Positions 14,144-26,188 of a stretch of DNA of 63,304 nt are shown piece after piece. Source of the stretch: a virus (lineage: Duplodnaviria; Caudoviricetes); the IMG/VR virus record IMGVR_UViG_3300035126_000079, positions 1-63,304 of that record. The stretch is one strand, 5' to 3'. The first letter of the stretch is position 1, and each line of letters begins with the position of its first letter. A program made the translations under genes and the position numbers. The notes under the pieces are model-generated. The model was not told the origin of the DNA, did not search any database, and saw nothing but the letters and a program-made list of their open reading frames with translations.

Positions 14144-14166
14144 AAAAAAGCCGCCCGTAGGCGGCT
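14144..14166 (-). terminator. Intrinsic terminator ending the early operon
   Basis: AGCCGCC-TACG-GGCGGCT followed by a T-run on the minus strand. Confidence 0.85.
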
Positions 14167-14195
14167 AGGATATACCCTAACATTGTTAGGTCGTT

Positions 14196-14705
14196 TTACT
14201 TCAGCATTGTGATCTCACGAGTCAGATACCACTGGGCTTTGCGCAAGTCTTCGAGCTTGTTGCCTTTGTGGTCGGCACGAGTCAGATACTTAATCACGTT
14301 GCCAATGTTGTAGTTGAGCTTCTTCGCTTCGATGAAGTCGATGGTCTCGATTCCACCTACTTTGTAATGCTCAGGGTGATCTACTGCATCAAACATTTCA
14401 ATCTGCATGGGTGTGTTGGATGTAGTAATGGACACAGTTTTCCAATCGGCTATTGTCTCATCCATTATCTGCTTGTGCTTTGCCATTGCTTCTTTGGCTT
14501 TGGGCGTATCCATTAGCTCTCTTAGCGTAAGCGTCTCACGCTTCTTCTTTACTACTTTGGCTTTCTTCTTCGCGTTCCACAGCACTGTGTATACGTACTG
14601 AAGTGCAACACCGATAGCATCTGCTACCTCCTGTGGTTTGGCCTTTGGGTTAGCGGCTACGTAGCTACGCACTTGTGCGGCTTTGGTTACTTTTTTGATT
14701 GTCAT
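14196..14705 (-). CDS. DUF3310 (T7 gp1.7-like nucleotide kinase family) protein with an N-terminal HTH-like extension
   Basis: VDHPEHY..GGIETID...GNVIKY..R..HK...EDLRKAQWYL; N-terminal PQEVADAIGVALQYVYTV. Confidence 0.85.
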   Translation of the reverse strand: MTIKKVTKAAQVRSYVAANPKAKPQEVADAIGVALQYVYTVLWNAKKKAKVVKKKRETLTLRELMDTPKAKEAMAKHKQIMDETIADWKTVSITTSNTPMQIEMFDAVDHPEHYKVGGIETIDFIEAKKLNYNIGNVIKYLTRADHKGNKLEDLRKAQWYLTREITMLK

Positions 14706-14908
14706 GGTTTATTTCCTGTTTGGTTGTTAACGTACTCGGTAAGAACTTCTCTCATCTTGGCTTGCTTTGACATTCGATGGTTGGTGTCGAAATAATCCAT
14801 CACCTCTCTCGGCAGTCGCAAGCTCGTGCAAGCTAATGCGGGTTTCTTACCAAGCCCCCGCCCCTTGCGTTTCTTCTCTAACTTTAAATACTCAATTCCT
14901 GTGGTCAT
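14702..14908 (-). CDS. Ribbon-helix-helix protein, BrnA-antitoxin-like
   Basis: RG.GKKP...SLRLPREVMDYF...QAKMREVL resembles the BrnA C-terminal RHH. Confidence 0.6.
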   Translation of the reverse strand: MTTGIEYLKLEKKRKGRGLGKKPALACTSLRLPREVMDYFDTNHRMSKQAKMREVLTEYVNNQTGNKP

Positions 14909-15228
14909 TTGTTTCCTTTCGCTCTGTCCATAACTCTTTCCATTGCATCCGAGTAGCTCATACCCAATGCTTTATCTATCAAAGCCAAAGACTCATCAAT
15001 GATTTTGTCGTACACCCCTGCTTCGGCTTCTCTAATTGCAGTTAGCGTGAACTTTGCATCTTCCAATGCTTCAATGTCGGCGCTGTTGACTTGCCACATC
15101 AGCTCAATGTCGGCTTCGATAGTGTCAAAGTAGGGCTTAATTGGTTTTAGCGGTTTTATCCTATCAAACATTTTCTGTCCAAGTTCGTAGAACTCTTTGT
15201 CTTTTCCTGTGCTGTTATCAATAGTCAA
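14905..15228 (-). CDS. Hypothetical protein
   Basis: ATGA-coupled ORF within the early operon. Confidence 0.7.
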   Translation of the reverse strand: MTIDNSTGKDKEFYELGQKMFDRIKPLKPIKPYFDTIEADIELMWQVNSADIEALEDAKFTLTAIREAEAGVYDKIIDESLALIDKALGMSYSDAMERVMDRAKGNK

Positions 15229-15240
15229 AATGGTGCCTCT

Positions 15241-15498
15241 TCATGTTGTGGTTTCTCTGGTTTGGGGAATCGCTTGGGGTCTAGCCGTGTGAACGGCCAC
15301 CACGCCCGTAGCTCCTCCTGACTTAGCACTTTGCCTTTCGACATCGGCTTCGTAGTATCTTGTTGGGTACTTTGCTTTTTTCTTGACATATTTTCGTAGC
15401 CAGTCGGCTCCACCTAATTCTTTAAACTGAAGCCACTCGACGTCACTTAAACGTACGTATCGTGCCTTTAGGAGGGCGGGGGGCTTTGGTCTTGGCAT
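15241..15498 (-). CDS. Small RHH-like protein
   Basis: MPRPKPP...RYVRLSD.EW..FKELGGADWLR; RBS AAGGAG. Confidence 0.6.
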   Translation of the reverse strand: MPRPKPPALLKARYVRLSDVEWLQFKELGGADWLRKYVKKKAKYPTRYYEADVERQSAKSGGATGVVAVHTARPQAIPQTRETTT

Positions 15499-15694
15499 GC
15501 TCTAGTACTCCTTCGTGCTTATTCGGTTGCCTTTGCTTGGCTCGGGTGAACGAACCAAATTGTTTGTACCCAAGGTCTTCCTCGCTCTTGATCTGATTGC
15601 TCGGGTTCTTAGCTCTGAAGTATTGGTCTTTCAAAAAGATACTAGGGCGATCTACCTGCGCTAGCTCCTCCCAAGGGTTCAGTACTTTGGTCAT
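15443..15694 (-). CDS. Hypothetical protein
   Basis: ATGA-coupled to the upstream ORF. Confidence 0.6.
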   Translation of the reverse strand: MTKVLNPWEELAQVDRPSIFLKDQYFRAKNPSNQIKSEEDLGYKQFGSFTRAKQRQPNKHEGVLEHAKTKAPRPPKGTIRTFK

Positions 15695-16020
15695 CGCTTA
15701 TCCCCAAACATATGCCCGACACTGCTTTCGTAAGCCACGGGCTTTTGCCCCCTCAGTTTGGCGATCTGCTCGTCCCACTTTAATCCGTTCATGTGCTTCC
15801 ATCCTTCTAACTTATCAGCTAAAAACTTCTCGTTGCCTTTGAACAAGCGCGTGTTAAGCGCCATGCTTGCAATAACTTCCATATCCACAGCGTGCTTGCG
15901 CACTTCTTCAGCGTTGCGGCGCACTCCACCCACGGCGGACATAATGATTGACTGCAACATCACAGGGTCTTGGGCACGGCGTGCTACCTCGGACAAAAAC
16001 TTCATCTCATCTTCATTCAT
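15691..16020 (-). CDS. Hypothetical protein
   Basis: ATGA-coupled; RBS AGGAG. Confidence 0.7.
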   Translation of the reverse strand: MNEDEMKFLSEVARRAQDPVMLQSIIMSAVGGVRRNAEEVRKHAVDMEVIASMALNTRLFKGNEKFLADKLEGWKHMNGLKWDEQIAKLRGQKPVAYESSVGHMFGDKR

Positions 16021-16265
16021 GTCAATACTCCTAACTGTCTAAGTGCTACTTTCAAACCTTCCACACCACCGACTCGCTGATCGTTGATGAATATTTGTGG
16101 CATCTGCCTAGCGTCAGGGAATTCCTTGAGTAAGTTACCCATGCGCTCACCCACCATAATGTCTACGTCCGCATACTTAAGCCCTGCGGCATTCAGTATT
16201 TGCTTCGCTGTCACGCAGTTTGGGCAGTTATCCTTTGTGTACATCGTTATGTTGACGTTGTTCAT
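16017..16265 (-). CDS. Glutaredoxin
   Basis: YTKDNCPNC, MPQIFI and VGG motifs; start trimmed to 16265. Confidence 0.9.
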   Translation of the reverse strand: MNNVNITMYTKDNCPNCVTAKQILNAAGLKYADVDIMVGERMGNLLKEFPDARQMPQIFINDQRVGGVEGLKVALRQLGVLT

Positions 16266-16473
16266 GTCCGATCTTCCTTTCTTGGTAGGTAAAAACAAAT
16301 TGGCACTTCTTGCATTGCTTCTGTTGCACGTAGGCATGCTCATCTGGGTACGAACACCATTCACTGAAGTCATGTTGGCAGTCACCAAAAAAGTGGTCAA
16401 ACAACCAAACAAACCCCGCGATACCGGCAATAAGTACCGGCCCTAAAAGCATGAGCCAAAGATCATTCATCAT
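16228..16473 (-). CDS. Small membrane-anchored protein with a Cys/His motif
   Basis: N-terminal hydrophobic segment; CQHDF...QCKKC. Confidence 0.6.
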   Translation of the reverse strand: MMNDLWLMLLGPVLIAGIAGFVWLFDHFFGDCQHDFSEWCSYPDEHAYVQQKQCKKCQFVFTYQERKIGHEQRQHNDVHKG

Positions 16474-16627
16474 CGTCGCCCTCCACGTTTTCTTGTATCA
16501 GTTGTTGCTTAACAAGCTCAAGAACGCCTATAACTGTGGACATGTAAAGCGTTTCGTCGTACTTGCGAACTACTGCAATAAGCTCATCAGCCAACCCACC
16601 CGCTAATTTTCCTTGGTTCAGTATCAT
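16463..16627 (-). CDS. Hypothetical protein
   Basis: MILNQGK... start, ATGA-coupled to the upstream gene. Confidence 0.6.
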   Translation of the reverse strand: MILNQGKLAGGLADELIAVVRKYDETLYMSTVIGVLELVKQQLIQENVEGDDDE

Positions 16628-16896
16628 TTCAGCCCCTTCAAAAGCAGTAACATTGTTATGGCGTCGGGCAATGACTCCTCCTCGCGTACTAGGTACAGCT
16701 CGGTAAGCCAATCGCTTCGGTTTTGATTCTTGCTCGGCTGATACGTGCGTAGTGTTAGCACCCGCCCATTGAGGGCGTTCGTGATTGAAATACTTGTTTG
16801 GTCACTCGGAGAGCTATCCACCTCATGCACTCTTGCCCCCACCAACTTCACACCCTCGTCCATCAACCAATTTCTAATCCATCTTTTAATACTCAT
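16624..16896 (-). CDS. Hypothetical protein
   Basis: ATGA-coupled; RBS GGAGG. Confidence 0.7.
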   Translation of the reverse strand: MSIKRWIRNWLMDEGVKLVGARVHEVDSSPSDQTSISITNALNGRVLTLRTYQPSKNQNRSDWLTELYLVREEESLPDAITMLLLLKGLK

Positions 16897-17075
16897 TTTT
16901 CCTCCAATACTTCTAAGATTACTTTCTTAATCCTGCCGTACGCATCTGCTTTGGTATACGGAGCGGCAAGAATGATGTCGATTTCGCACAGGGCGTCGTA
17001 GTACTGCGTGCCCTTCAATGCGTGCTCTAGTTTGTATTCGTCTTGTGGGTACTCAAATTCAAGTACGGCTTTCAT
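16893..17075 (-). CDS. Hypothetical protein
   Basis: MKAVLEFEYP..., a type of small ORF common in phages. Confidence 0.7.
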   Translation of the reverse strand: MKAVLEFEYPQDEYKLEHALKGTQYYDALCEIDIILAAPYTKADAYGRIKKVILEVLEEK

Positions 17076-17226
17076 ACGCGGCCCCCTTCGTCAAGCGAAT
17101 GAGTAGTCGCGCCTTACGCCATGTTCTGCGCACATCTGTTGATGCGGCATCGACCCATTTGAATTTGGGGTGATTGTGATCTCGCAAGGGAATCACTTTG
17201 GATTGGTATTTGATTTCATGTTGCAT
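17059..17226 (-). CDS. Small hypothetical protein (55 aa, below the ORF-track cutoff)
   Basis: Translated by hand: MQHEIKYQ...HPKFKWVDAASTDVRRTWRK...; its RBS AGGAG overlaps a palindrome copy. Confidence 0.65.
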   Translation of the reverse strand: MQHEIKYQSKVIPLRDHNHPKFKWVDAASTDVRRTWRKARLLIRLTKGAAYESRT

Positions 17227-17255
17227 CTAAATTCTCCTAACATTGTTAGCCTGTT

Positions 17256-18143
17256 TTATGCCAGTTCCCGCGCCGCGCTGAGTAAAACAAACACCTCAGC
17301 AGTGGCTCGACAACCGACACCCTCAATCATTTGCTCAGGCTCTACTAGCTTGAGCATCCCTAACTTACCTCTCATATCTACGGGGAGCGTATTATCATCG
17401 TAAAGCTGTACTTCGTCACCTGTTTTAACTACGTACTTTCCATTAGACAATAAGACTAGACTAGTATCCTTACCGGATTTGAACTTGGTCTCTATGTCTT
17501 CGACAGTCAGCATCTCAAGTCCTGTCGCACGCAGTTGGGATAACAATGTTAGTTGCCCGTTACCCATTGCATACTGTTTGAACTCGTCGGCCTTCACATC
17601 GAGCACAAAGTTTTTCATAAGTGGCATTAGTTTGTGCATGTTGTTTGCATAGTCCCCACGCTTACGCCCTGCCTGTCTGCTGATAGCACGAGCGGCTTCT
17701 CCCAACGCATCATTCATACGCTCAGTCATGCTCTTGGGATTAAAGGTTTTCTTGATAGCGGCTAGGGCTTTCTTAGCATCCTTAGTCCGATACGCGCCCA
17801 CACGCTCACGCTCACTACGAATAGTGTTGCTAGTGATAGAGAACACATACCCACCTTGGTCGTAACGATAGTCGCGGTCGATAGCACCTACCACTTCTCC
17901 ATCTTTGCATACTACGAACTTAGTAACTGTGATCCGCGCCTTCTCATCCGCAGTTGCACTCTTGATCTGTCCGTAATACTCAGGCACTCGGAACTCCCAC
18001 GTTGGGTTCTCGGTGATGACCTTCCACATGATCTCATTCAATGGCTTCTCCACCACGAAATCAAAGTCGCTCTTACGTTTACCCTGCAACGTCTTGTCGC
18101 TAATGATGACGTTACTCAATGTCATTGCTGTGCTTGCATCCAT
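17256..18143 (-). CDS. Hypothetical protein
   Basis: 295-aa ORF with RBS AAGGAG. Confidence 0.8.
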   Translation of the reverse strand: MDASTAMTLSNVIISDKTLQGKRKSDFDFVVEKPLNEIMWKVITENPTWEFRVPEYYGQIKSATADEKARITVTKFVVCKDGEVVGAIDRDYRYDQGGYVFSITSNTIRSERERVGAYRTKDAKKALAAIKKTFNPKSMTERMNDALGEAARAISRQAGRKRGDYANNMHKLMPLMKNFVLDVKADEFKQYAMGNGQLTLLSQLRATGLEMLTVEDIETKFKSGKDTSLVLLSNGKYVVKTGDEVQLYDDNTLPVDMRGKLGMLKLVEPEQMIEGVGCRATAEVFVLLSAARELA

Positions 18144-18153
18144 GATCTACTCC

Positions 18154-19002
18154 TTACCATTCAAATTTCTTAATGATTGCATCTACCTTAGCCTTGACCT
18201 CGGTGCGATGTTGTTCGCTATCCTTGATTGCCTCTATGTCAGTACCTAACATTGTTAGCTCTAATTCCTTGCGTGCTTCCTCCAACTTGGGGTCGTTGGT
18301 GATGTTCATCTTAGTAAGCAAAGCACAAAGCTCTAGCGGGTTGCTCACCAATGTGTCGTGGTAACGCTTCTTACCACCCGATGTGTCGTCGAGTTTCTTA
18401 GACATGCCTACTAGCATTTCATGTAACCGCTCCCATGGCTCACGCATAGCGTCAGCTAGCTTGTTGTCTTGTTGTGCGCTGAACTCTGCTTGCATCTCGG
18501 CTAAGTCATTCGCAGGTATATCTAAGCGAAAATCACCCGCCTCGGGTACAGGCTTGACTGTTCTACGAAACCCAAACTTCAGCTTCACTTCTTCAAGCTC
18601 GGGATAGTCCTCGGCTCTGTACATCTTGCCTAGGTGCGTAGGTGCATCCTTCACTAGCTCAGGGTATGCGTGAAAGAATGAGCCGCACATGGCATTGAAC
18701 GTCTGCTCGTATGCGTTCATGGTCTGTTTGTATTCCATAAACAAGGCAGTCGGCAACATACGCTCGCCCTTGTCTGCCCATGGTAGCGTTCGCTGATTGT
18801 GATAGAGACGAACCTTGGCGGCAAAGTTCTCGATCTCCTTACGCAAGTTAGTACCTGCGAATAGGTTCTTGTGGACACGCGCTGCGTCTACGACTGCTGA
18901 TGCGTCAGTATTCACTTGCGCCGTTGTATCGCGGTCTAGCTTTGATGCAGGCCACACGCTGATGTTCAATTCCACTAACACTGCTGATGAACTAATACTC
19001 AT
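18154..19002 (-). CDS. DUF3150-like protein associated with the AAA/vWA cluster
   Basis: LVELNISVW...K.D, RTLPW, YP...V..KF pattern; neighbours the MoxR/vWA genes. Confidence 0.55.
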   Translation of the reverse strand: MSISSSAVLVELNISVWPASKLDRDTTAQVNTDASAVVDAARVHKNLFAGTNLRKEIENFAAKVRLYHNQRTLPWADKGERMLPTALFMEYKQTMNAYEQTFNAMCGSFFHAYPELVKDAPTHLGKMYRAEDYPELEEVKLKFGFRRTVKPVPEAGDFRLDIPANDLAEMQAEFSAQQDNKLADAMREPWERLHEMLVGMSKKLDDTSGGKKRYHDTLVSNPLELCALLTKMNITNDPKLEEARKELELTMLGTDIEAIKDSEQHRTEVKAKVDAIIKKFEW

Positions 19003-19196
19003 TTCTTATCTCCATATACGTTGTTTGCGATTGTGGCAAAGCGGTTAATTGCTTCGAACTTGGATACTTTGTTGGTCTTAAATGTATAAGCCAAGGTCAT
19101 AGCTAAGATAACCATGCCCTCGCCATTAGAAACTTCTTGCTCAGCGAACCGCTTAACGATTCGTATACCTTCGTTCTTCATTTCTTCAGGTGTCAT
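18999..19196 (-). CDS. Hypothetical protein
   Basis: Tightly packed ORF. Confidence 0.65.
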   Translation of the reverse strand: MTPEEMKNEGIRIVKRFAEQEVSNGEGMVILAMTLAYTFKTNKVSKFEAINRFATIANNVYGDKK

Positions 19197-19197
19197 T

Positions 19198-19449: not shown

Positions 19450-19459
19450 ACTGCCTCCC

Positions 19460-20635
19460 TTAATCTTGAATATGAATCGTTCTGCCATTGTCAGAAACCG
19501 CATCGTTACCTCCTGTGATTACCCACATAGTCGGTGCAGTCCATTCGCTACCCCAGTTGGGTACATAGCCATCGGTCAACACGATGATGCACTCGGGCTT
19601 GATAACCTCGTCACGCAAGTATTGAGATACGCAACTAGGGTCAGTGCCCCCGCCACCCTTGGGTTTGGTCGAGCTAACAATGTTAGATACTTCCGCACCC
19701 TCATACTTCTCATGCCCCGCTACATCACCATCCCAATAGATCAAGTCCACCATCTCGGGGTTGACTTCTTCTGCCACGCCTTTCACCTCGGCTAAGAATT
19801 CGTCAAGCTCACGCCCACCGATGGAGCCCGATGTGTCAATGGCTACTACGATGTGTCCAACCTTCTCACCGATCATGCTTGGCATATACGTACCGGCAGA
19901 CAAGTATCTGCGGTTGACTCTGCGCCATGACGATGTGTCCTTGTTGTGGCATGTGGCTTTCACATATTCACGTAGTTCCTCACGCCAGTTGATCTTGGGT
20001 TGTAAGTGTTCATCAATCTCACGCCCCACACCACCCGCACCTTTGCCGTGTGCCTTCTCATGTGCCATGACACCCTGACGAATAGCTTGGTCGATCTCAC
20101 GCTCAAGGGTTTTCTTCTCCTCCTCGGTCATCTCTCTTGCACCATCCCAATCGTGGTCATCGAACCCACCACCCCCATCGCTCTCTTCGAGTAGGTCGAA
20201 CACTTGCTTGGAGTTCATGCCCTTGAACTGTGGGTCGTACAGTCCCATGCGCTGACCCTTCATAACCCCATCCTTGTACTTAGGCATGGAAATCACATCC
20301 TCGTTGGGGTCGAGTTCATGAAGCATCAGGTTAATAACGTAGTCACAAGCACTGTTGGCACGGCTATGGTTCTCGTCATTGAGTTTCTTCCATGTAGTCA
20401 AGTGTCTGTACATCTTGTGTGACACCTCATGCGCCACGACAAATGCCAATTCTTTGTCGGTCAAAGCCGCCACAAACTTACGCCCATACTTCTCATCCCT
20501 ACCATTGGTAGACGCAGTGGGTATGTCATCCACTACGCTAGTACGACCAACCATCATCACACCTTGGAGTAAGGCGAACTTAGGATTACGCATGAGCGTG
20601 ATCTTGGCTTTCTGCAATTTACGTTCTTCTAACAT
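19460..20635 (-). CDS. DUF2201-type metallopeptidase + vWA domain protein
   Basis: AHEVSH (HExxH), MIDAS DTSGS, GGGGTD and LTDGY motifs. Confidence 0.9.
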   Translation of the reverse strand: MLEERKLQKAKITLMRNPKFALLQGVMMVGRTSVVDDIPTASTNGRDEKYGRKFVAALTDKELAFVVAHEVSHKMYRHLTTWKKLNDENHSRANSACDYVINLMLHELDPNEDVISMPKYKDGVMKGQRMGLYDPQFKGMNSKQVFDLLEESDGGGGFDDHDWDGAREMTEEEKKTLEREIDQAIRQGVMAHEKAHGKGAGGVGREIDEHLQPKINWREELREYVKATCHNKDTSSWRRVNRRYLSAGTYMPSMIGEKVGHIVVAIDTSGSIGGRELDEFLAEVKGVAEEVNPEMVDLIYWDGDVAGHEKYEGAEVSNIVSSTKPKGGGGTDPSCVSQYLRDEVIKPECIIVLTDGYVPNWGSEWTAPTMWVITGGNDAVSDNGRTIHIQD

Positions 20636-20637
20636 TG

Positions 20638-20901
20638 TTAGGTTCCTTCTATGTGTCGTTGCTTGTTAATCATGTCGGCAAATAACTTCGCCTCTTCAAA
20701 CGTGTCATGCACTGATATAACCTTTTGGGTATCAAGAAATGCACTCTTGTAATCCTTGGCGTCAACCAATTCATACTTGCCTGTGTAGTAGAGTTGGGAG
20801 GGCATGGTGTTCACTATCTTGAACTTCGGGTCATGCTTGCTCTTGTCTACTGTCGTTTGCCTACGCACAAATGCGTTACCAATCTTAGAGAAGGTCATCA
20901 C
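20638..20901 (-). CDS. Hypothetical protein between AAA and vWA genes
   Basis: Coupled ORF; RBS GGGGG. Confidence 0.6.
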   Translation of the reverse strand: MMTFSKIGNAFVRRQTTVDKSKHDPKFKIVNTMPSQLYYTGKYELVDAKDYKSAFLDTQKVISVHDTFEEAKLFADMINKQRHIEGT

Positions 20902-21125
20902 ATCCCCCCTTCGATTAGTAACTTAGCCATAAGCAGTAACTCTTGTAAGGTTTCAAAGTCATGTATCTTGCGGAAGTCCTGTCTGCTCTCCACTTGGTAC
21001 AAAATATATCGTTGCTTACCATCGTCATCTTGATACCCACCCACCGCATACCCTGCTTCATGTAGCTTGGTATAAGAGAATGGGTTAGGAATCCAAACTT
21101 CATCCTTAGGCTTAGAGTAAGTCAT
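20898..21125 (-). CDS. Hypothetical protein between AAA and vWA genes
   Basis: Start MTYSKP overlaps the AAA 3' end. Confidence 0.55.
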   Translation of the reverse strand: MTYSKPKDEVWIPNPFSYTKLHEAGYAVGGYQDDDGKQRYILYQVESRQDFRKIHDFETLQELLLMAKLLIEGGM

Positions 21126-22179
21126 GGTTCTTAGCCACCCAATCAGCGAACGCCTTGCAACTGAACGCAATGCTCTGTTTGCTTGGTGTCTTGGCAATGT
21201 TGATAGCGAACACCGCTTGCCACTCTGCATCGAATCGGTTCAAGTACTCCATGAATGGGGCAATGGTTGTCTTGTCTACCCGAGCAATCGCACCGAATAC
21301 CACAATGGCACATGCACCCGCTGACGTAGGTATTGCCGTGGTCTTGGGATGCGTGATCGTTGACTCCCATGTCGGCAACTGATCTGAGAACTCAATGTAT
21401 GCTTGCATATCCCGAGCGGCTGACTCACCCACCGCACCTGACAAAGCCGCAATCACAGTCTCGGGGTCGTTATCTTTGCGAGACCTAACAATGTTAGACG
21501 CTGTCTCAAGCGAGCGTGGTGATACGAAAGCCTTCTGAGAGTTCTTAGGGTTGTAGATGTAGGGGTTGTCGCCTTGCCCTGCGTCTGTGTAGCTAGCCAT
21601 TGCATGAGGGAAACGATTCACCCAAGCAATCACCTCGGGCTCGATACCCTTACCGATAGCCCACTCAATCCACTGCTCGGCATCGGGTTTGCTGATCGTT
21701 ACGGGAACCAGTCGGTTACGGCTATGCGCTTTCAGGTTATCGCCCACGCCGTCTGTTGAAAGGTTACCAGTAAGAAAGACAATGGTAGTACTCGGGTCAA
21801 GCGGTATGTCACCGAGTCTAGGGTTTGCCTTCTCTAGCATAGGGTGAAGCATATTCTTCACGGGTTCTGCACCCTTGGTGAACTCATCGAGCATGATGAC
21901 CATGGGTTTGCCAGTATGAATACCAAAGCGTGCGTTGGGGTAATACCTAGTGGTCTTGGTATCGTGGTCGATCACAGGCATGGCAATGTCGCCCAAGTCC
22001 ATGTTCGGCACGTCTATGTATGCGTACTCGTAGCCCAAGCCGTTAGCAATACTCTCCAATAGGGAAGACTTCCCGATTCCTGGCTCACCTTGTAGGAGAA
22101 AGCGCGTAGTAGGATTGGTGCGAATCAGGTTCGCGGCTTGTTTGAGGGTAATTGATTTACCGAATTTGATCTCTGACAT
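21112..22179 (-). CDS. MoxR-like AAA+ ATPase
   Basis: GEPGIGKS, MLDE, LTGN, SRNR (Arg finger) and SPRS (sensor II). Confidence 0.9.
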   Translation of the reverse strand: MSEIKFGKSITLKQAANLIRTNPTTRFLLQGEPGIGKSSLLESIANGLGYEYAYIDVPNMDLGDIAMPVIDHDTKTTRYYPNARFGIHTGKPMVIMLDEFTKGAEPVKNMLHPMLEKANPRLGDIPLDPSTTIVFLTGNLSTDGVGDNLKAHSRNRLVPVTISKPDAEQWIEWAIGKGIEPEVIAWVNRFPHAMASYTDAGQGDNPYIYNPKNSQKAFVSPRSLETASNIVRSRKDNDPETVIAALSGAVGESAARDMQAYIEFSDQLPTWESTITHPKTTAIPTSAGACAIVVFGAIARVDKTTIAPFMEYLNRFDAEWQAVFAINIAKTPSKQSIAFSCKAFADWVAKNHDLL

Positions 22180-22265
22180 ATCTAACCTTTCTGATTGTGC
22201 CTAACATTGTTAGGCGTTTCTAATTTACTCTGCATTTTTGACGTAGTTTTCCCACATCAGCTTAT

Positions 22266-22294
22266 ATTATACCACATTGTTATAGCAATGTCAA
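22266..22294 (-). promoter_or_regulatory. Consensus sigma70 early promoter
   Basis: TTGACA-17-TATAAT with extended TG; the spacer holds a degenerate palindrome site (TAACAATGTGG). Confidence 0.9.
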
Positions 22295-22315
22295 GTCCTT
22301 TCGTCATGGGTCTGA

Positions 22316-23464
22316 CTAAAGAACTCCTCTCCTCAACCTTTCTTCCTGTAATCGTTTGACCTCCTCCTCTGTCGGCATCTTTGTTATGTATGCTTCGTAC
22401 TTGTCGTTGGGCAACTGATTCGGTTTGAGTGGTCGCTTCTCGATCATCTCATCGCTATGCCATTGCATCATGATCTTGTCCAGCATCCGCTCGACTGCGC
22501 TTACTGAAATATCCACAACCACATCCTCTCCTTCCTTTGGCGCTCTGTGTATGTACGGCATCGCCATACCTAACAATGTTAGGGTTATCCGATAGTAGTT
22601 GTCGACCTTCCCATCTTCGAGTTGGTCATCGCGTATCGCTGCAAAGAAACTCTTGCACTGCTTAGAGTATGCAGACCACAGGGTCTCCTCTGGGTTCGCA
22701 TCATCGTGCAACAACGACAAGCATCTGTAACCCTGCGGTTTGAACTCGATGAGCTTCACCGAATCAAGGTCGGGCTTCCACACAGTCTCCTTCCCCGAGG
22801 CTTTTATCCCACGCCATGCCGTCTGCTCTTTGTACTCGTACCCAATGCAGTCGGCAATCTCCATCATGGACATACGAATGTCTCTGCCTTCCACATCTTT
22901 GCGCAGGGACAGGAACCCACCGAAGTACTTCATGAACCCTGAGTATTGAGACCTAACAATGTTAGATGCCTTGCGGTTAACGTAGTACGAATAGATGGTT
23001 TCTTTGCTGTCCACACTCAGGCACTCGCCTTCACAACTTAATGTTAGCGAGCCGTTCTGTTTAAGCACATGGCGTTCAGCATCCACGATGATGCCCACCT
23101 TCTTGCGGTCTAGCCAAGCGGGTATATCTAGCACCCGCCCGATCATCCCTGACTCCATCAGTCCCATGTACTTAGGTGTGATGATGATCTTGTTGTCAGG
23201 CGTGAACGTGAGCAGGGGCGAGCGGTAACTAAGCAACTCGATGTTCCCACCCTCACCTTCTCGGATTGAATAGATGTCAATGTCCTCACGCCTACCCAAT
23301 GGGATGCAAGGTGTCGGGTTGTCGCGGTCGTACTTGTCGCGTGTCTCGGGTGTGCGCCCCCGAATGGGTTTGGTTTTCTTGAGGCGTGCCATTGCATCTG
23401 CGTGGCTACGGACAATCGGCAAATAGTAGGTTGAGGCATGAAGCCCCGTCTGTCTTTCTTTCAT
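22316..23464 (-). CDS. Hypothetical early protein
   Basis: 382-aa ORF with RBS GGAG; contains two palindrome copies. Confidence 0.8.
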   Translation of the reverse strand: MKERQTGLHASTYYLPIVRSHADAMARLKKTKPIRGRTPETRDKYDRDNPTPCIPLGRREDIDIYSIREGEGGNIELLSYRSPLLTFTPDNKIIITPKYMGLMESGMIGRVLDIPAWLDRKKVGIIVDAERHVLKQNGSLTLSCEGECLSVDSKETIYSYYVNRKASNIVRSQYSGFMKYFGGFLSLRKDVEGRDIRMSMMEIADCIGYEYKEQTAWRGIKASGKETVWKPDLDSVKLIEFKPQGYRCLSLLHDDANPEETLWSAYSKQCKSFFAAIRDDQLEDGKVDNYYRITLTLLGMAMPYIHRAPKEGEDVVVDISVSAVERMLDKIMMQWHSDEMIEKRPLKPNQLPNDKYEAYITKMPTEEEVKRLQEERLRRGVL

Positions 23465-23466
23465 GA

Positions 23467-23640
23467 TTACTCCATTAGTTCTGATTGCGCACGCAGGCGC
23501 AGGGCTTTCACATTCTTCAGCGTGGGGTACTTCAGGCAGAAGCGTTCCCTTGCGGTGCTTATATCTTTAGCCTCGGCAATCTCGGTCACCCAATAGCCGA
23601 AGCGGTTACTCCATCCTGTCATTACGTATTTAGCTAACAT
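23467..23640 (-). CDS. Small hypothetical protein (57 aa)
   Basis: Translated by hand: MLAKYVMTGWSNRFGYW...; RBS AAGGAGG; ATG lies inside a palindrome copy. Confidence 0.7.
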   Translation of the reverse strand: MLAKYVMTGWSNRFGYWVTEIAEAKDISTARERFCLKYPTLKNVKALRLRAQSELME

Positions 23641-23839
23641 TGTTATCCTCCTTGATTAAATCGTAGTACATTCGTACCTGTTTCTTTGTACCCTGTGCTA
23701 GTAGCACCACGTTGTTTGCCTCGTTAGGCACGTTCAGGTGGCTCTCGACTATGCGTTGGTATCGGTAATCCCTCTCGTTAAACATAACAATAATGTCGTA
23801 ACTAGGCACTCGGCAAAGGTAGTAGGTCTCCTCCATCAT
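23630..23839 (-). CDS. Hypothetical protein
   Basis: MMEETYYL..., ATGA-coupled to the upstream ORF. Confidence 0.65.
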   Translation of the reverse strand: MMEETYYLCRVPSYDIIVMFNERDYRYQRIVESHLNVPNEANNVVLLAQGTKKQVRMYYDLIKEDNNVS

Positions 23840-23925
23840 GGTCTCCAATAAAGTAGGTCAAGTGCAAGCACTATGCAAGCACACAAAATAACAATGCGCT
23901 CGATCTTTTCCCATCGGGTCATCAT
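23836..23925 (-). CDS. Tiny membrane peptide (29 aa)
   Basis: MMTRWEKIERIVILCACIVLALDLLYWRP; ATGA-coupled on both sides. Confidence 0.65.
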   Translation of the reverse strand: MMTRWEKIERIVILCACIVLALDLLYWRP

Positions 23926-24101
23926 GGTGCTTCCCCCTTGGTTTGCTCGCATAGTTCATCGAGCGTGAAGTAAACGTTTTCCAGTCTGCCCCGCACCTCA
24001 TGGCGGTTACGGATACTGTCGATATTGTTTAGGGCATAGCGCAGTTGGTCTCTCATGCGTGTGAACTCGTCATGCAGTTCGTCTCTGTATTCATCTAACA
24101 T
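23922..24101 (-). CDS. Small hypothetical protein (59 aa)
   Basis: MLDEYRDELHDEF...; RBS AAGGAG; ATG lies inside a palindrome copy. Confidence 0.7.
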   Translation of the reverse strand: MLDEYRDELHDEFTRMRDQLRYALNNIDSIRNRHEVRGRLENVYFTLDELCEQTKGEAP

Positions 24102-24342
24102 TGTTAGGCTCCTTCATGTCCTTCATTAGGATTACTAGGTCTTCGATCAAGTCTTGGATGCAGTCGCCTCGGATTGCGTGAACGGGCTCAACGCCTAAGT
24201 CTTCCGCCATCTGCATCACATCCGCAAACAACTTGTCCCATCCCGCAGTCCAGTCGGTCATGTCGTACCAACCGATTGGGTAGATTTCGTGGTCGGAGAA
24301 CAAATAGCCCCAGTACATCATCCCTGTATCTTCTTTGGTCAT
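24091..24342 (-). CDS. Acidic hypothetical protein
   Basis: Coupled ORF; ends across a palindrome copy. Confidence 0.65.
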   Translation of the reverse strand: MTKEDTGMMYWGYLFSDHEIYPIGWYDMTDWTAGWDKLFADVMQMAEDLGVEPVHAIRGDCIQDLIEDLVILMKDMKEPNNVR

Positions 24343-24563
24343 CCTCGCAACTCCTTTTGGTTTGTTTGCTTAAGTGTTACCCGTGCGCTCGCAGGTGTAA
24401 CAAGTTGGTAGTTGCCCTTGCCGTATTCTTGGACTACGCACCAACTCATGCGTTCTTCTCGGGCGGCTTCTTCACCGCAGAATAGGCAGACTCGGTAGCC
24501 TAGTGACCACCGCTCACTGTGTATATCGTCACCGCAGTTGCGGCACTCTTTCCAATCATTCAT
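24339..24563 (-). CDS. Zn-finger protein (DksA/TraR C4-like)
   Basis: CRNCGDDI...R...GYRVCLFC; first gene after the 24704 promoter. Confidence 0.65.
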   Translation of the reverse strand: MNDWKECRNCGDDIHSERWSLGYRVCLFCGEEAAREERMSWCVVQEYGKGNYQLVTPASARVTLKQTNQKELRG

Positions 24564-24675
24564 ACATCTAACCTTTCTAATGAGCCTAACAATGTTAGGG
24601 TGCTTCTAACGGGCGGGATTGCCCGTATCTGCCGAGCAAGCTCGTCAGTAGATGGTTTTCTCCCATCTAACTTAT

Positions 24676-24704
24676 ATTATACCACATTGTTATGTCAAAG
24701 TCAA
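24676..24704 (-). promoter_or_regulatory. Sigma70 early promoter (near copy of the 22266 promoter)
   Basis: TTGACT-17-TATAAT; shares ATAACAATGTGGTATAATATAAG with the 22266 promoter. Confidence 0.88.
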
Positions 24705-24724
24705 GTTCTTTAGTCTTGGGTGTG

Positions 24725-25175
24725 ACGAAAGGTAATGTTATAAAGTTATGTTATATTTTAAGTGGGGTCAGCAGTAGGGTTATTGTGGAGGGGCAGAAAT
24801 GGGATGTTATGAAAGCAAATGGGGGTGCGTTATGAAAAAAGGGGAAATGTAACGAAAATTAGGGTAAACGTAACGTGAAACGTAACACGGGGTTCTCCTC
24901 TGTAAAATGGGTTTTTTTAATATAATGTTATAATGTTATGTGTTTTTTAAGAAAGGGTATGTGGTCTCCAAAATTATTTGCGTAATACGTTTTGCACTTC
25001 TGAGGTCTTTCGTTGCCTCATAACTTTTGGGAGGTCGACACCCATTATGCCAAAAACACGTAACTTTATAACTTTCTAGGTTTCATGCGGGTTCCCAGCG
25101 TTTCGTAACGTAACAAAGCCCTTTTTTCCGTAACATTAGACGTAACATTGCACAAAGTTACATAACATTGTTAGG
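24725..25175. other. Non-coding AT-rich region dense in GTTA/TAAC pentamer-hexamer repeats (candidate replication origin)
   Basis: More than 15 (C/T)GTTA(T/C) or (G/A)TAAC units; no ORF of 60 aa or more. Confidence 0.5.
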
Positions 25176-25253
25176 TCGCTTGCTACCGCCGCCCAGAGAA
25201 CTGGCATTCAGATCGAGGTCACTTGCTACTGCCGACCAGAGAACTGGCATTCA
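25173..25253. repeat. 38-bp tandem direct repeat, two copies (43-bp period)
   Basis: AGGTC(G/A)CTTGCTAC(C/T)GCCG(C/A)CCAGAGAACTGGCATTCA at 25173 and 25216; 3 mismatches. Confidence 0.9.
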
Positions 25254-25301
25254 AAAAACCCCGCAAAAAAAGACCTAACATTGTTAGGTCGGTTTAGACG
25301 C

Positions 25302-25325
25302 AAAAAAGCCCGCACTAGGCGGGCT
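25302..25325 (-). terminator. Intrinsic terminator
   Basis: AGCCCGC-5nt-GCGGGCT plus T-run; a second hairpin GGTAAGGG/CCCTTACC lies at 25333-25352. Confidence 0.85.
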
Positions 25326-25359
25326 CAGGATGGGGTAAGGGTTTCCCCTTACCTGTGGT

Positions 25360-25854
25360 TTACTCGATTGCGCCTGTATCAACACCGAGGGCAATCAAAG
25401 CCGAGGTGATGTAGGTTTGCGCATCTTGCTCACGATCGCTCAGGCTCTCAGCGTTCTTGCAAGCTTTGAACAACGTGCTCAGTTCCTCGATCAATCGGAG
25501 GTTGAGTGAGCGATTGTGGCGTGCACCTACTGACGTATCGGTTGAACCCTCGGTTTTCTCGGGCTTGCCCTCGATGTGCTCTTGTGCATACTTGCGAACC
25601 CGAGCCCAAACTGTTGACGGGTTTGTGTGCTCTGCTTCGTTCAATGCTTTGAACAATGCTTTCTTTTCCGCATGAACTTGCTTTGCATCCTCACCCTTGT
25701 CATTGTGCTCGACAAGATACCATTCAACCGGTAACACTTCGCAAAGCTTTTCAGCATAGTCACGCTCAGCGCCGTATGCACGTTTGACCGCATCGGCAAC
25801 ACCCTGACGCAAATCGGACAAGGACAAAGTGGAAATTGTAGTAACTGTTGACAT
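25360..25854 (-). CDS. Monocistronic immediate-early hypothetical protein
   Basis: Has its own promoter (25928) and terminator (25302); contains NPSTVWARVRKYA. Confidence 0.8.
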   Translation of the reverse strand: MSTVTTISTLSLSDLRQGVADAVKRAYGAERDYAEKLCEVLPVEWYLVEHNDKGEDAKQVHAEKKALFKALNEAEHTNPSTVWARVRKYAQEHIEGKPEKTEGSTDTSVGARHNRSLNLRLIEELSTLFKACKNAESLSDREQDAQTYITSALIALGVDTGAIE

Positions 25855-25927
25855 GATCTAATAACCTCTAATGAAACCCAGTAAACGGACTAGGAAACCG
25901 CCACAAGCATTTTGCTTGCTTGAATAT

Positions 25928-25956
25928 ATTATACCACAAAAAAGTGGCAATATCAA
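25928..25956 (-). promoter_or_regulatory. Sigma70 early promoter
   Basis: TTGATA-17-TATAAT with extended TG; palindrome copy ~20 bp upstream at 25977. Confidence 0.85.
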
Positions 25957-26188
25957 TTTTCCCGTGAACAATAATTACATAACATTGTTATGTCGTTTCA
26001 AAAAAAGTTCAAAGGCAAAAGGGTACGGGAGGTGGGGACACCAAATGACCAAAGAGGAATCCTAGAAATACCCTACACACTGTGGAGCTCAAACGATCTC
26101 GCGTTTTAAAATTCCACCCTCCCCCTTTTTGGGGGAAGTTCGGGAACACCCCCCGGGTCTAAGTAAAAACCCTAATCACAAAAAATTT

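What the first reader, a model, noticed from the sequence alone, without database searches (positions are those of the whole stretch)
14176..25993. Stoperator-like network: 16 copies of one palindrome confined to the early arm, including inside genes
Seen: the core TAACA[A/T]TGTTA, usually extended to CCTAACAWTGTTAGG and up to 19 bp at 25272, occurs 16 times between 14.2 and 26.0 kb. I saw none in the other ~51 kb. Six copies lie deep inside coding sequence (17541, 18245, 19674, 21484, 22569, 22952). They are read in different frames as LTML/LTLL or SNIV, so the selection is on the DNA rather than on a shared protein motif. The first copy abuts the terminator that ends the early operon and the last sits just upstream of the first promoter, so the sites bracket the whole early region. 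Known: mycobacteriophage L5 stoperators are multi-copy repressor sites that silence transcription, but they are asymmetric; parS-type sites are palindromic and clustered. Inference: a dimeric phage protein coats or silences the entire early region, or marks it for partition or protection, in a phage with no visible integrase.
Basis: partly seen in the sequence, partly recalled or inferred. Interest (0 to 1): 0.9.

Follow-up and report, generated by a model that had tools for sequence, protein, structure and literature searches.

The report
Palindromic operator network in phage early operon
A lake-water phage and its many uncultured relatives keep about 8 to 18 copies of one short DNA palindrome, some inside genes, along their early operon; these are most likely binding sites through which the operon's first gene product, a protein of no known family, controls early transcription.

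Summary

It is a conserved system. Of 80 related IMG/VR loci plus the window, 78 carry 4 or more such palindromes. Five complete relatives each confine them to one block.

Relatives keep the arms but use a 1-, 2- or 3-nt centre, or TGACA arms. Intragenic sites are under selection on the nucleic acid. In the AAA ATPase, 36 of 40 one-nt-type genomes carry the site. Eighteen of 24 two-nt-type genomes encode the same SNIVR with other codons and no site.

A DNA operator for a dimer fits better than an RNA hairpin:
- The first site lies upstream of the first promoter in 29 of 33 unique upstream regions.
- There is no G·U tolerance.
- Hairpin stability varies widely.

Sites follow sigma-70-like promoters at a median of +54.

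The first early gene (25360-25854) tracks site type in 48 of 49 loci and is predicted to form a homodimer. It has no known fold, and no binding has been shown.

Verdict: a new variant of the multi-operator (stoperator-like) kind; the mechanism is inferred.

The parts
25980..25990 (.). Site 17, core TAACAATGTTA on the sense (minus) strand. It lies upstream of early promoter P1, centred about 65 nt before the predicted start, so it is outside the early transcript.
   Evidence: the same placement (-64 to -118) in 29 of 33 unique upstream regions of relatives
25928..25956 (-). P1, a sigma-70-like promoter (TTGATA-17-TATAAT with a TG extension) for the first early gene.
   Evidence: 11 of 12 matches; conserved layout in relatives
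25360..25854 (-). First early gene (family F17, 164 aa). It is the candidate cognate binder: all-alpha, no known fold or family, predicted homodimer.
25306..25326 (-). Intrinsic-terminator-like hairpin plus T run after the first gene.
25272..25290 (.). Site 16 (core 25276-25286), extended to a 19-bp palindrome and followed by a T run on the sense strand.
   Evidence: RNA hairpin -9.0 kcal/mol
25163..25173 (.). Site 15, in the non-coding region downstream of the first gene.
24676..24704 (-). P2, a sigma-70-like promoter (TTGACT-17-TATAAT). Its spacer and extended -10 hold a quasi-site, TAACAATGTGG (24682-24692).
24587..24597 (.). Site 14, in the 5' untranslated region of ORF 24339-24563, about +77 from P2.
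24096..24106 (.). Site 13. Its central ATG (24101) is the start codon of ORF 23922-24101. The site also lies in the 3' end of ORF 24091-24342.
23635..23645 (.). Site 12. Its central ATG (23640) is the start codon of ORF 23467-23640. The site also lies in the 3' end of ORF 23630-23848.
22954..22964 (.). Site 11, deep inside ORF 22316-23464 (read as SNIV).
   Evidence: site at this position in 24 of 28 one-nt-type relatives; a two-nt-type site at the same place in a mixed genome
22571..22581 (.). Site 10, deep inside ORF 22316-23464 (read as LTLL).
   Evidence: 9 of 28 one-nt-type relatives
22266..22294 (-). P3, a sigma-70-like promoter matching the consensus in 12 of 12 positions, inside the 3' end region of ORF 22316-23464. 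Its spacer holds the same quasi-site, TAACAATGTGG (22272-22282).
22202..22212 (.). Site 9, in the 5' untranslated region of the AAA ATPase gene, about +52 from P3.
21486..21496 (.). Site 8, deep inside the AAA ATPase gene 21112-22179 (codons 228-232, SNIVR).
   Evidence: 36 of 40 one-nt-type genomes against 2 of 24 two-nt-type genomes
20630..20640 (.). Site 7. The TAA stop of ORF 20638-20901 lies in the left arm, and the ATG start (20635) of the metallopeptidase/VWA gene 19460-20635 lies in the centre.
19675..19685 (.). Site 6, deep inside gene 19460-20635 (read as SNIV).
   Evidence: 32 of 38 against 0 of 23; a TGACA-type site at the same place in a mixed genome
18247..18257 (.). Site 5, inside ORF 18154-19002 (read as LTML, codons 249-253).
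   Evidence: 32 of 37 against 0 of 23; 4 two-nt-type genomes keep LTMLG without the site
17541..17551 (.). Site 4, deep inside ORF 17256-18143 (read as LTLL).
   Evidence: 7 of 36 one-nt-type relatives
17238..17248 (.). Site 3, intergenic. Its 3' flank runs into the ribosome-binding site of ORF 17059-17226.
16648..16658 (.). Site 2, in the 3' end of ORF 16624-16896, about 21 nt upstream of the ATG at 16627.
14178..14188 (.). Site 1, the terminal site. As the 15-mer 14176-14190 it begins 6 nt after the stop of the HTH-DUF3310 gene 14196-14705, just before the terminator.
   Evidence: a terminal site after this gene in 24 of 35 genomes
14149..14166 (-). Intrinsic-terminator-like hairpin that ends the early unit. 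The next sigma-70-like promoter (14131-14104) starts the replication module.

Best explanation
The 17 palindromes, consensus C-TAACA-W-TGTTA-G, are double-stranded DNA operators for a phage-encoded homodimer. The most likely binder is the product of the first early gene (25360-25854, family F17).

Proposed course of events:
1. Host RNA polymerase starts at three strong sigma-70-like promoters (P1, P2, P3).
2. The first gene product accumulates.
3. It binds a site upstream of its own promoter, quasi-sites that overlap the extended -10 of the internal promoters, a site about 50-80 nt downstream of each start point, and further sites every 0.3-1.4 kb through the promoter-proximal 9 kb, including inside long genes. 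One more site sits at the operon's terminator.
4. The most likely effect is negative: promoter occlusion plus roadblocks to elongation, shutting the early operon off as the phage moves on to replication and late genes.

What is shown: the sites, their selection, their placement relative to promoters and genes, and the co-variation with the first gene. What is inferred: that the sites act as DNA, that F17 binds them, and that the effect is repression.
For: 1. The sites are real and confined. There are 17 against 0.06 expected, all in 14178-25990. In 5 of 5 complete relatives they sit in one block.

2. The system is conserved. Of 81 sequences (80 loci plus the window), 40 have 1-nt centres, 24 have 2-nt, 2 have 3-nt, 2 have TGACA arms with a 2-nt centre, 10 are mixed and 3 have fewer than 4 sites.

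3. Selection acts on the nucleic acid at homologous intragenic positions.
- AAA gene: 36 of 40 one-nt-type genomes carry the site. Eighteen of 24 two-nt-type genomes encode the same SNIVR with other codons and no site.
- ORF 18154-19002: 32 of 37 against 0 of 23.
- Gene 19460-20635: 32 of 38 against 0 of 23.
- At two of these positions, genomes of another type carry their own type of site, with a changed peptide (SDICQ, VTNVR).

4. The evidence points to the DNA level.
- A site lies at -64 to -118 from the predicted start of P1 in 29 of 33 unique upstream regions, so it is not in the early RNA.
- Among 258 unique one-mismatch sites, G·U-type changes (11) are no commoner than A·C-type changes (19). 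The four core pairs are almost never broken.
- RNA hairpin energies of the 17 sites run from 0 to -9.3 kcal/mol, and 9 are -3.1 or weaker.
- Once sites that supply a start codon are set aside, the A:T orientation of the centre is 184:158 for 1-nt centres and 129:58 for 2-nt centres. That is near my rough estimate of what the arm's A-richness alone would give (AT skew).

5. The sites are linked to transcription. For 103 unique extended -10 promoters, the next site is centred at a median of +54 (interquartile range 49-80). It lies within 120 nt for 85 of 103, against 16% for random positions. Of 93 unique promoters, 24 carry TAACA in the spacer.

6. Evidence on the binder.
- F17 is present in 27 of 40 one-nt-type loci and 0 of 24 two-nt-type loci. 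Its positional counterpart F24 is a homologue (hhalign 98.7%, E 3.9e-16).
- Subfamily and site type agree in 48 of 49 loci.
- Forty-one loci cover the first-gene slot. The 39 with F17 or F24 have 8 or more sites (median 15). The 2 with an unrelated first gene have 2 and 4.
- No other shared regulator candidate splits by type: ratios are 0.84-0.98, and the lowest early-arm family is 0.66.
- Predicted homodimer: score 0.63, best of 3 controls 0.00. The mark was reached by 20 of 30 proteins solved as pairs of one chain and by 1 of 23 solved as single chains. The runs agree in at least 77% of contacts, and the partner's pLDDT is at least 73. My own alignment was used, so these counts hold only roughly.
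Against: - No binding was measured.
- F17 has no recognisable DNA-binding fold or family: no Pfam or PHROG match, best Foldseek E-value 0.72 in PDB and 0.26 in BFVD, and best VIA Z-score 6.7, which is within noise for helical proteins.
- F17 is mildly acidic (pI 5.45; family median 6.06).
- One locus (L064) has an F24 gene but only 1-nt sites.
- Mixed genomes such as L051 carry two site classes but only one F17/F24 homologue in the DNA fetched.
- Counted on the AAA gene tree, only 5 independent contrasts exist: 4 go the same way, 0 go opposite and 1 shows no difference (sign test p = 0.125). Linkage, or a shared host, could therefore produce the association.
- Features that would also suit an RNA element: all but the first site are transcribed, the sites sit just downstream of promoters, and the central ATG is the start codon in 54 of 238 (A centre) and 116 of 245 (AA centre) unique sites.
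- The direction of control, repression or activation, is not determined. A site at about -65 to -85 is also a classical activator position (my own knowledge).
- Promoters and start points are consensus predictions only.
Confidence: 0.5

Rival explanations
1. The sites act as RNA hairpins in the early transcripts: a 6-bp stem with a 3-5 nt A/U loop. They could be nut/boxB-like loading sites for an antiterminator (the first gene product), or translational operators that hold start codons.
For: - Sixteen of 17 sites lie in the transcribed unit, which ends at a terminator.
- Sites follow promoters at a median of +54.
- The first gene is followed by a terminator, as in lambda's pL-nutL-N-tL1 layout (recalled).
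- The central ATG is the start codon in 54 of 238 and 116 of 245 unique A-centre and AA-centre sites.
- Centres of 1, 2 and 3 nt coexist in some genomes, which a loop tolerates more easily than a rigid dimer does.
Against: - The first site lies upstream of the predicted P1 start in 29 of 33 unique upstream regions.
- There is no G·U tolerance, and the arm sequence is invariant rather than merely paired.
- Nine of 17 hairpins are -3.1 kcal/mol or weaker, and one does not fold at all.
- Deep intragenic sites (133 of 396 unique 1-nt A/T-centre sites) are conserved, yet they have no role in translation initiation.
- The central base is A or T in either orientation.
- F17 is a folded, acidic dimer, unlike arginine-rich N peptides (the comparison is recalled).
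Confidence: 0.2
2. A host protein, such as a global regulator or nucleoid protein, binds the palindromes. The site types and the first gene both track different hosts rather than each other.
For: - The association of F17/F24 with site type rests on few independent contrasts.
- There is one exception, L064, and mixed genomes have a single F17/F24 gene.
- F17 has no DNA-binding signature.
- Cores of this kind are used by cellular and phage regulators. The string TAACAAATGTTA occurs in three papers on Listeria or its regulator PrfA (listing only; that this is the PrfA box is my recollection). It also lies in the Aca11 inverted repeat (passages).
Against: - Four site classes occur among phages whose core genes are 81-99% identical.
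- A site sits upstream of the first gene's own promoter, a placement I know as typical of self-regulated repressors.
- The network is absent exactly where the first gene is replaced by an unrelated one.
- The host is unknown, so this reading cannot be tested here.
Confidence: 0.12
3. The repeats are chiefly recombination linkers. Identical 13-15 bp junctions carrying a TAA stop and an ATG start would let co-infecting relatives swap early-gene cassettes in register.
For: - The early region is highly mosaic, and many variable cassettes are flanked by sites.
- The motif contains a stop and a start codon and often lies exactly at gene junctions.
- Mixed genomes look like recombinants.
Against: - Deep intragenic sites are kept at homologous positions in conserved genes, and they convert to the genome's own type.
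- Sites stand at fixed distances from promoters.
- The type is uniform within a genome and co-varies with one gene.
- The junction test was inconclusive: 181 of 565 variable junctions hold a site, against 14 of 125 others.
- Cassette swapping is more likely a by-product.
Confidence: 0.08
4. The sites are centromere-like or protective sites, of the ParB/parS or KorB type, for partition of a plasmid-like state or for shielding the DNA.
For: Palindromic, clustered and partly intragenic sites resemble parS and OB sites (recalled). No integrase was seen.
Against: - No ParA, ParB or KorB family appeared in the proteins scanned.
- No relative of the AAA gene was found in one genome for each of 185,579 prokaryote species (the search reaches close relatives only).
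- The sites are tied to promoters and to one transcription unit.
Confidence: 0.04

Closest known systems
Stoperators of Cluster A mycobacteriophages (L5, Bxb1)
   Same: Many copies of one short site (20 to 30 there, 8 to 18 here). Most are not in promoters. They are bound by one phage protein to block elongation, and each phage lineage has its own cognate consensus. Source: PMC6550527, passages read; PMC9283540, abstract seen.
   Different: Stoperators are asymmetric, point with transcription, are spread over the whole genome, and are read by a monomeric immunity repressor of temperate phages (same sources). Here the sites are palindromic and confined to one early unit, with about a third of the 1-nt-type sites deep inside genes. 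The candidate binder is a predicted dimer, the first gene of the early operon, in a phage with no integrase found. That these sites stop polymerase has not been tested.
KorB-OB operator network of IncP plasmid RK2, and ParB-parS sites (recalled, not checked in a paper here)
   Same: A 13-bp palindrome with an odd central base, about a dozen copies dispersed over a replicon, some far from promoters. They are read by a dimer for global control.
   Different: No ParB/KorB-family protein was found in the proteins scanned. The sites here sit in one operon and stand at fixed distances from promoters.
Conserved inverted repeats bound by the repressor of Streptomyces phage phiC31 (recalled; two searches found no open text on it)
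   Same: A palindromic operator present many times, mostly in the early region of a phage.
   Different: phiC31 is temperate, and the binder is its immunity repressor. Intragenic sites kept by selection, and an allelic series of centre lengths, are not something I know from that system.
Lambda N with nut (boxB) RNA hairpins (recalled)
   Same: The first early gene is followed by a terminator, and short hairpin-forming elements lie shortly downstream of the early promoters.
   Different: Lambda has two nut sites, not 17. N is a small basic peptide that reads an RNA loop. Here the arm sequence is fixed, G·U pairs are not tolerated, and one site lies outside the transcript.
Hairpin promoters of coliphage N4 read by its virion RNA polymerase (recalled)
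   Same: A short stem with a 3-nt loop, repeated in an early region.
   Different: No polymerase-like hit appeared among the large virion ORFs. Ordinary sigma-70-like promoters are present. There are 17 copies, including copies inside genes.

Membership tests
Stoperator system (Cluster A mycobacteriophages) | Many copies of one short site, most outside promoters | tested here: met
   17 copies in the window. Only the quasi-sites overlap promoters.
Stoperator system (Cluster A mycobacteriophages) | [quoted passage not shown] | tested here: not met
   The sites are palindromes. The central base takes either orientation.
Stoperator system (Cluster A mycobacteriophages) | Sites spread over the whole genome (PMC6550527) | tested here: not met
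   All 17 lie in 11.8 of 63.3 kb. The same confinement holds in 5 of 5 complete relatives.
Stoperator system (Cluster A mycobacteriophages) | Bound by the phage's immunity repressor, which blocks elongation | not testable with these tools
   No binding or transcription assay was possible. No integrase was found in the ORFs scanned.
Stoperator system (Cluster A mycobacteriophages) | Cognate site consensus co-varies with the binder between lineages | tested here: met
   First-gene subfamily and site type agree in 48 of 49 loci. Only 4 of 5 independent contrasts support it, p = 0.125.
Lambda N / nut antitermination | Element acts as an RNA hairpin read by its loop | tested here: inconclusive
   Against: the first site lies outside the transcript in 29 of 33 regions, there is no G·U tolerance, and many hairpins are weak. 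For: the position at +54 after promoters.
Lambda N / nut antitermination | Small arginine-rich antiterminator peptide | tested here: not met
   The first gene product is a folded 164-aa helical protein with pI 5.45 and a predicted dimer.
ParB-parS / KorB-OB | A ParB/KorB-family protein is encoded | tested here: inconclusive
   No such family appeared in the 20 minus-arm proteins scanned in Pfam, nor in 9 of those 20 plus ORF 6940-7860 scanned in PHROGs. Many small ORFs were not scanned.
ParB-parS / KorB-OB | Palindromic sites, clustered, some within genes | tested here: met
N4-type hairpin promoters | A virion-packaged RNA polymerase is encoded | tested here: inconclusive
   The large ORFs 51114-56954, 60478-63303 and 3-3587 gave no polymerase hit in PHROGs. 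A very distant polymerase cannot be excluded.
N4-type hairpin promoters | Hairpins stand in place of ordinary promoters upstream of early genes | tested here: not met
   Strong sigma-70-like promoters are present and the sites lie downstream of them. Six of the 17 sites are deep in genes.

The most novel reading that the evidence does not exclude
F17/F24 is a new fold of sequence-specific DNA-binding homodimer. It makes 'immunity types' in a strictly lytic phage family. An infection under way would shut down the early operon of a superinfecting phage of the same site type but not of another type. Diversifying selection would then drive switches in centre length (1, 2 or 3 nt) and in the arms (TAACA or TGACA), forcing operators to be rewritten even inside conserved genes at the cost of changed peptides.
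Probability: 0.2. Interest if true: 0.8.

Novelty: new variant of a known kind. Interest (0 to 1): 0.62.

Why it matters
If the reading is right, a widespread family of uncultured lake phages controls its early operon with a dense set of operators read by a protein family of unknown fold. The family has 128 clusters at 50% identity in a library of 1.84 billion proteins.

It would be a natural series of regulator and operator pairs that differ mainly in the length of the operator's centre. Such a series is useful for studying how DNA-binding specificity evolves, and as a source of independent switches.

It also shows regulatory sites being kept inside conserved genes strongly enough to fix codon choice, and in places to change the protein. 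That matters for how coding sequence in phage genomes is read and annotated.

Tried and rejected
- Nearest named phages. Megablast of both arms against INPHARED gave no match. tblastn of the first gene gave none. The large terminase is 54-57% identical to Phage DSL-LC04 and Pelagibacter phage HTVC027P. The first 50,000 of DSL-LC04's 61,547 bases hold no palindrome present more than twice, so the network belongs to the window's own clade.
- Known RNA families and tRNAs: none in the window.
- Expression data: no RNA holder was listed among 24 runs, all of them lake or freshwater DNA.
- Fold of the first gene product. No Foldseek match at E <= 0.001 in PDB (best 0.72) or in BFVD (best 0.26). Best VIA-align Z 6.7 (KaiA, 80 residues, rmsd 5.4), which is within the noise stated for helical models. 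A profile search of PDB sequences gave one hit at E 0.97. A Pfam scan of all 68 alignment members gave six different families with one member each. The protein atlas gave only unnamed viral clusters and a weak DUF3102 lead at 0.83.
- Strand asymmetry as a sign of RNA. AA centres outnumber TT centres 220 to 50 among unique TAACA-arm sites. Once sites that supply a start codon are set aside, the ratio is 129:58. That is close to my rough estimate of what the arm's A-richness would give. I dropped the argument.
- Cassette-junction test: inconclusive. Only one adjacency qualified as conserved.
- Prophage copies. No relative of the AAA gene was found in genome contigs. The search reaches close relatives only.
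- Hairpin promoters, terminators, CRISPR-like arrays and methylation or restriction sites were considered and set aside. Ordinary promoters are present, only two sites are followed by a T run, the spacing is irregular (113-2470 bp), and the sites are enriched rather than avoided.
- Not attempted: a covariance model of the sites, a fold of F24, and a model of the protein on DNA (no tool here takes DNA in a complex).
- Supplementary files of PMC6550527, which hold the stoperator counts and orientations (Fig. S1), were not opened.

Full report
OBSERVATION. All copies lie between 14178 and 25990. Dinucleotide-preserving shuffles give 0.06 copies on average, and none of 100 shuffles reaches 17. The longer form CCTAACAWTGTTAGG with up to two mismatches matches 14 times against 0.16 expected. 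Outside the block there is one copy with a G at the centre, at 8637-8647. The window is a whole virus record, rated 100% complete. It has no close match among named phages. By its large terminase it is a distant relative (54-57% identity) of Phage DSL-LC04 and Pelagibacter phage HTVC027P. DSL-LC04 has no such repeat in the 50,000 of its 61,547 bases that I read.

ANATOMY IN THE WINDOW. Genes from 25854 down to about 3674 are on the minus strand. The consensus scan finds three strong sigma-70-like promoters on that strand:
- P1 at 25956-25928.
- P2 at 24704-24676.
- P3 at 22294-22266, a 12-of-12 match.

A fourth promoter at 14131-14104 follows a terminator at 14166-14149. Another terminator at 25326-25306 follows the first gene. 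The sites therefore fill exactly one early unit, from just upstream of P1 to just before the terminator that precedes the replication genes. Those genes encode family A DNA polymerase, a protein with sigma-70 region 4, a PD-(D/E)XK nuclease, an SNF2 helicase and a DUF927 protein, and they hold no site.

Of the 17 sites:
- Six lie deep in long genes.
- Three supply the ATG start codon of a gene (20635, 23640, 24101).
- Two lie in the 5' leaders after P2 and P3.
- One lies upstream of P1.
- One lies at the end of the unit.
- The remaining four lie in or near gene junctions or in non-coding DNA.

P2 and P3 both hold the quasi-site TAACAATGTGG in the spacer next to the extended -10.

RELATIVES. 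A search of viral contigs with the AAA ATPase (21112-22179) found 217 relatives, of which 80 loci were kept. They carry the same arms with different centres. Of 81 sequences (80 loci plus the window):
- 40 have mostly a 1-nt centre (TAACA-W-TGTTA).
- 24 have a 2-nt centre (mostly AA or TT).
- 2 have a 3-nt centre.
- 2 have TGACA arms with a 2-nt centre.
- 10 are mixed.
- 3 have fewer than four sites.

In all five complete relatives examined, the sites sit in one block of about 7 to 19 kb. Over 771 unique site contexts, nothing is conserved beyond C-TAACA-(N1-3)-TGTTA-G. In 35 genomes that hold both ends of the unit:
- The promoter-proximal 7-11 kb holds 8-18 sites. Their gaps are more even than chance (median coefficient of variation 0.51).
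- The stretch from ORF 17256-18143 to the DUF3310 gene holds 0 or 1 site.
- A terminal site follows the DUF3310 gene in 24 of 35.

SELECTION INSIDE GENES. This is the clearest result.
- AAA gene. All 40 one-nt-type genomes encode SNIVR at codons 228-232. Thirty-six of them spell it with the site, usually TCT AAC ATT GTT AGG, while neighbouring codons vary synonymously. Of 24 two-nt-type genomes, 18 encode the same SNIVR with other codons, such as TCG AAC ATT GTC CGG, and have no site.
- ORF 18154-19002. The site is present in 32 of 37 against 0 of 23. Four two-nt-type genomes keep LTMLG without it.
- Gene 19460-20635. The site is present in 32 of 38 against 0 of 23, and the peptide itself differs. 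A mixed genome carries a TGACA-type site at the same place (SDICQ).
- ORF 22316-23464. A two-nt-type site (GTAACAAATGTTAGG, VTNVR) stands where one-nt-type genomes have TCTAACATTGTTAGG.

Both the position and the genome's own site type are kept, sometimes at the cost of the protein sequence.

DNA OR RNA? Four things point to double-stranded DNA read by a symmetric protein.
1. In 29 of 33 unique regions upstream of the first gene, a site is centred 64 to 118 nt before the predicted start of P1. That puts it outside the early transcript.
2. Among 258 unique sites with one mismatch, changes that would leave a G·U pair in the sense RNA (11) are no commoner than those that would leave A·C (19). The four core pairs are almost never broken. 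The sequence of the arms is conserved, not merely their pairing.
3. As RNA, the 17 sites fold with 0 to -9.3 kcal/mol, and nine are -3.1 or weaker.
4. The central base is A or T in either orientation. AA outnumbers TT 220 to 50 among unique TAACA-arm sites. This is largely explained by sites whose ATG is a start codon, which is possible in one orientation only. Without those sites the ratios are 184:158 and 129:58. That is near my rough estimate of what the arm's A-richness would give (AT skew).

The RNA reading keeps some weight for three reasons. Sixteen of 17 sites are transcribed. Many sites hold start codons: 54 of 238 A-centre and 116 of 245 AA-centre unique sites. And centres of different length coexist in ten genomes.

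LINK TO TRANSCRIPTION. For 103 unique extended -10 promoters within the site blocks of relatives, the next site is centred at a median of +54 from the predicted start (interquartile range 49-80). It lies within 120 nt in 85 of 103, against 16% for random positions (Mann-Whitney p about 1e-28). Twenty-four of 93 unique promoters carry TAACA in the spacer. Start points are predictions from consensus matches, not measurements.

THE CANDIDATE BINDER. The gene right after P1 belongs to family F17 in 27 of 40 one-nt-type loci and in none of 24 two-nt-type loci. Many of the other 13 one-nt-type loci do not reach the first-gene slot: only 41 of the 79 sequences with an AAA gene call do. In two-nt-type and TGACA-type genomes the same slot holds family F24. 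The two families are homologous (hhalign probability 98.7%, E 3.9e-16 over 141 columns).

By subfamily:
- All 28 sequences with a typical F17 have 1-nt sites.
- The one divergent F17 (L081) has 3-nt sites.
- All 15 loci of the main F24 group have 2-nt sites; one of them (L062) is mixed.
- Four loci in two F24 subgroups have TGACA sites.
- L069 has mostly 2-nt sites.
- L064 is an exception: F24 with only 1-nt sites.

Forty-one sequences cover the slot. The 39 with F17 or F24 have at least 8 sites (median 15). The two with an unrelated first gene (hhalign probability under 1%) have 2 and 4. No other shared family splits by type.

The protein is a helical two-domain protein (mean pLDDT 87.9). It has no family or fold match. 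It has 128 relatives at the 50% cluster level.

A homodimer is predicted. The score is 0.63 and the best of 3 controls is 0.00. The mark was reached by 20 of 30 proteins solved as pairs of one chain and by 1 of 23 solved as single chains. The runs agree in at least 77% of contacts, and the partner's pLDDT is at least 73. My own alignment was used, so the counts hold only roughly. Helix 79-95, with the conserved NPS..W.R.RKY motif, is largely outside the predicted interface. I take it as the likeliest reading helix; this is inference.

CAVEATS.
- On the AAA gene tree there are only five independent contrasts in the first gene. The site type follows in four, opposes in none and does not change in one (p = 0.125). 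The site's own codons were not removed from that tree.
- Each locus holds a single F17/F24 homologue, yet mixed genomes such as L051 hold two site classes. I read the minority sites as recent imports by recombination. That is not shown.
- The protein is mildly acidic (pI 5.45).

MECHANISM. I commit to the following, at about 0.5.
1. Host polymerase fires P1-P3.
2. The first gene product builds up and binds, as a dimer, to the site upstream of its own promoter, to the quasi-sites in P2 and P3, to the +50 to +80 sites and to the internal sites.
3. This closes the early operon by occlusion and roadblock as the phage turns to replication and late genes, for which it encodes a protein with sigma-70 region 4 (10792-11544).

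The sites, their selection and their placement are shown. DNA-level action is well supported. The identity of the binder is supported by association only. The sign of the effect is a guess from the layout.

COMPARISON WITH KNOWN SYSTEMS. The closest described system is the stoperator network of Cluster A mycobacteriophages. It has 20-30 sites, most not in promoters, bound by the repressor to block elongation, with lineage-specific consensus and cognate repressors (PMC6550527, passages read; PMC9283540, abstract seen). Those sites are asymmetric, oriented, genome-wide and read by a monomeric immunity repressor of temperate phages. Here the defining features of asymmetry and genome-wide spread were tested and not met, so this is not a member of that family, though it may work like one. 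KorB-OB, phiC31 repressor repeats, lambda N-nut and N4 hairpin promoters are compared from memory only; searches for open text on phiC31 found nothing. The exact motif strings occur in 21 papers of the library. None of the 15 listed is on this phage group, and the one I read uses the string in an unrelated operator.

NOVELTY AND VERDICT. The finding is real, highly non-random and conserved across a large uncultured phage family. It is best filed as a new variant of the multi-operator kind. Its distinguishing features are these:
- It is palindromic and confined to the early unit.
- It has operators held inside conserved genes.
- It shows an allelic series in centre length that follows the first early gene, a protein of no known family.

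I saw no description of it in the searches named above. Interest 0.62.

Noticed in passing
window 24714-25359: The 646-bp non-coding stretch between the first early gene and ORF 24339-24563 is packed with GTTAC(G)/(C)GTAAC repeats. Over 51 sequences, GTTAC/GTAAC has a median of 8.1 per kb there against 1.8 per kb in the DNA downstream. This includes the two relatives that lack the palindrome network. It looks like a separate conserved element of unknown role.
   Followed up: partly
window about 25170-25265: Two tandem copies of a roughly 43-nt unit (gaatgccagttctctgg...gtagcaag.gacc). The second copy runs into site 25163-25173.
   Followed up: no
window 8637-8647 and 8423-8433: TAACAGTGTTA (perfect arms, G centre) lies inside the SNF2 helicase gene, outside the block. 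TGACAATGTCA overlaps a TTGACA hexamer next to the stop codon of that gene. Some relatives also have one stray site in the replication module.
   Followed up: partly
window 60478-63303 and 3-3587: The ORFs at the two ends of the record are in phase. They would form one protein of about 2137 aa if the record is circularly permuted. The C-terminal part matches DarB-like antirestriction (PHROG 10089, E 3.3e-78) and LPD39.
   Followed up: no
window 10792-11544: A 250-aa protein with sigma-70 region 4 (Pfam E 2.1e-18; PHROG 'RNA polymerase sigma factor') sits in the replication module. It is a candidate for redirecting host polymerase to later genes.
   Followed up: no
window 51114-56954: A 1946-aa ORF in the virion arm has no PHROG match at E <= 1e-5.
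   Followed up: no
window about 26040-26130, and upstream of the first site in most relatives: A G-rich element (GGGGTGGGG-like) precedes the first site. A short conserved hairpin (catgcaaac...gattgcat) follows the P1 start in many relatives.
   Followed up: no
L078 and L080: Two relatives (AAA gene about 81% identical) have an unrelated first gene and almost no palindromes. They are natural controls for the network.
   Followed up: yes
literature: The 2-nt-centre core TAACAAATGTTA also occurs in the Aca11 operator (PMC12658196, passages read). It also occurs in three papers on Listeria or its regulator PrfA (listing only; that it is the PrfA box is my recollection). I take this as coincidence of a common operator shape.
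   Followed up: partly
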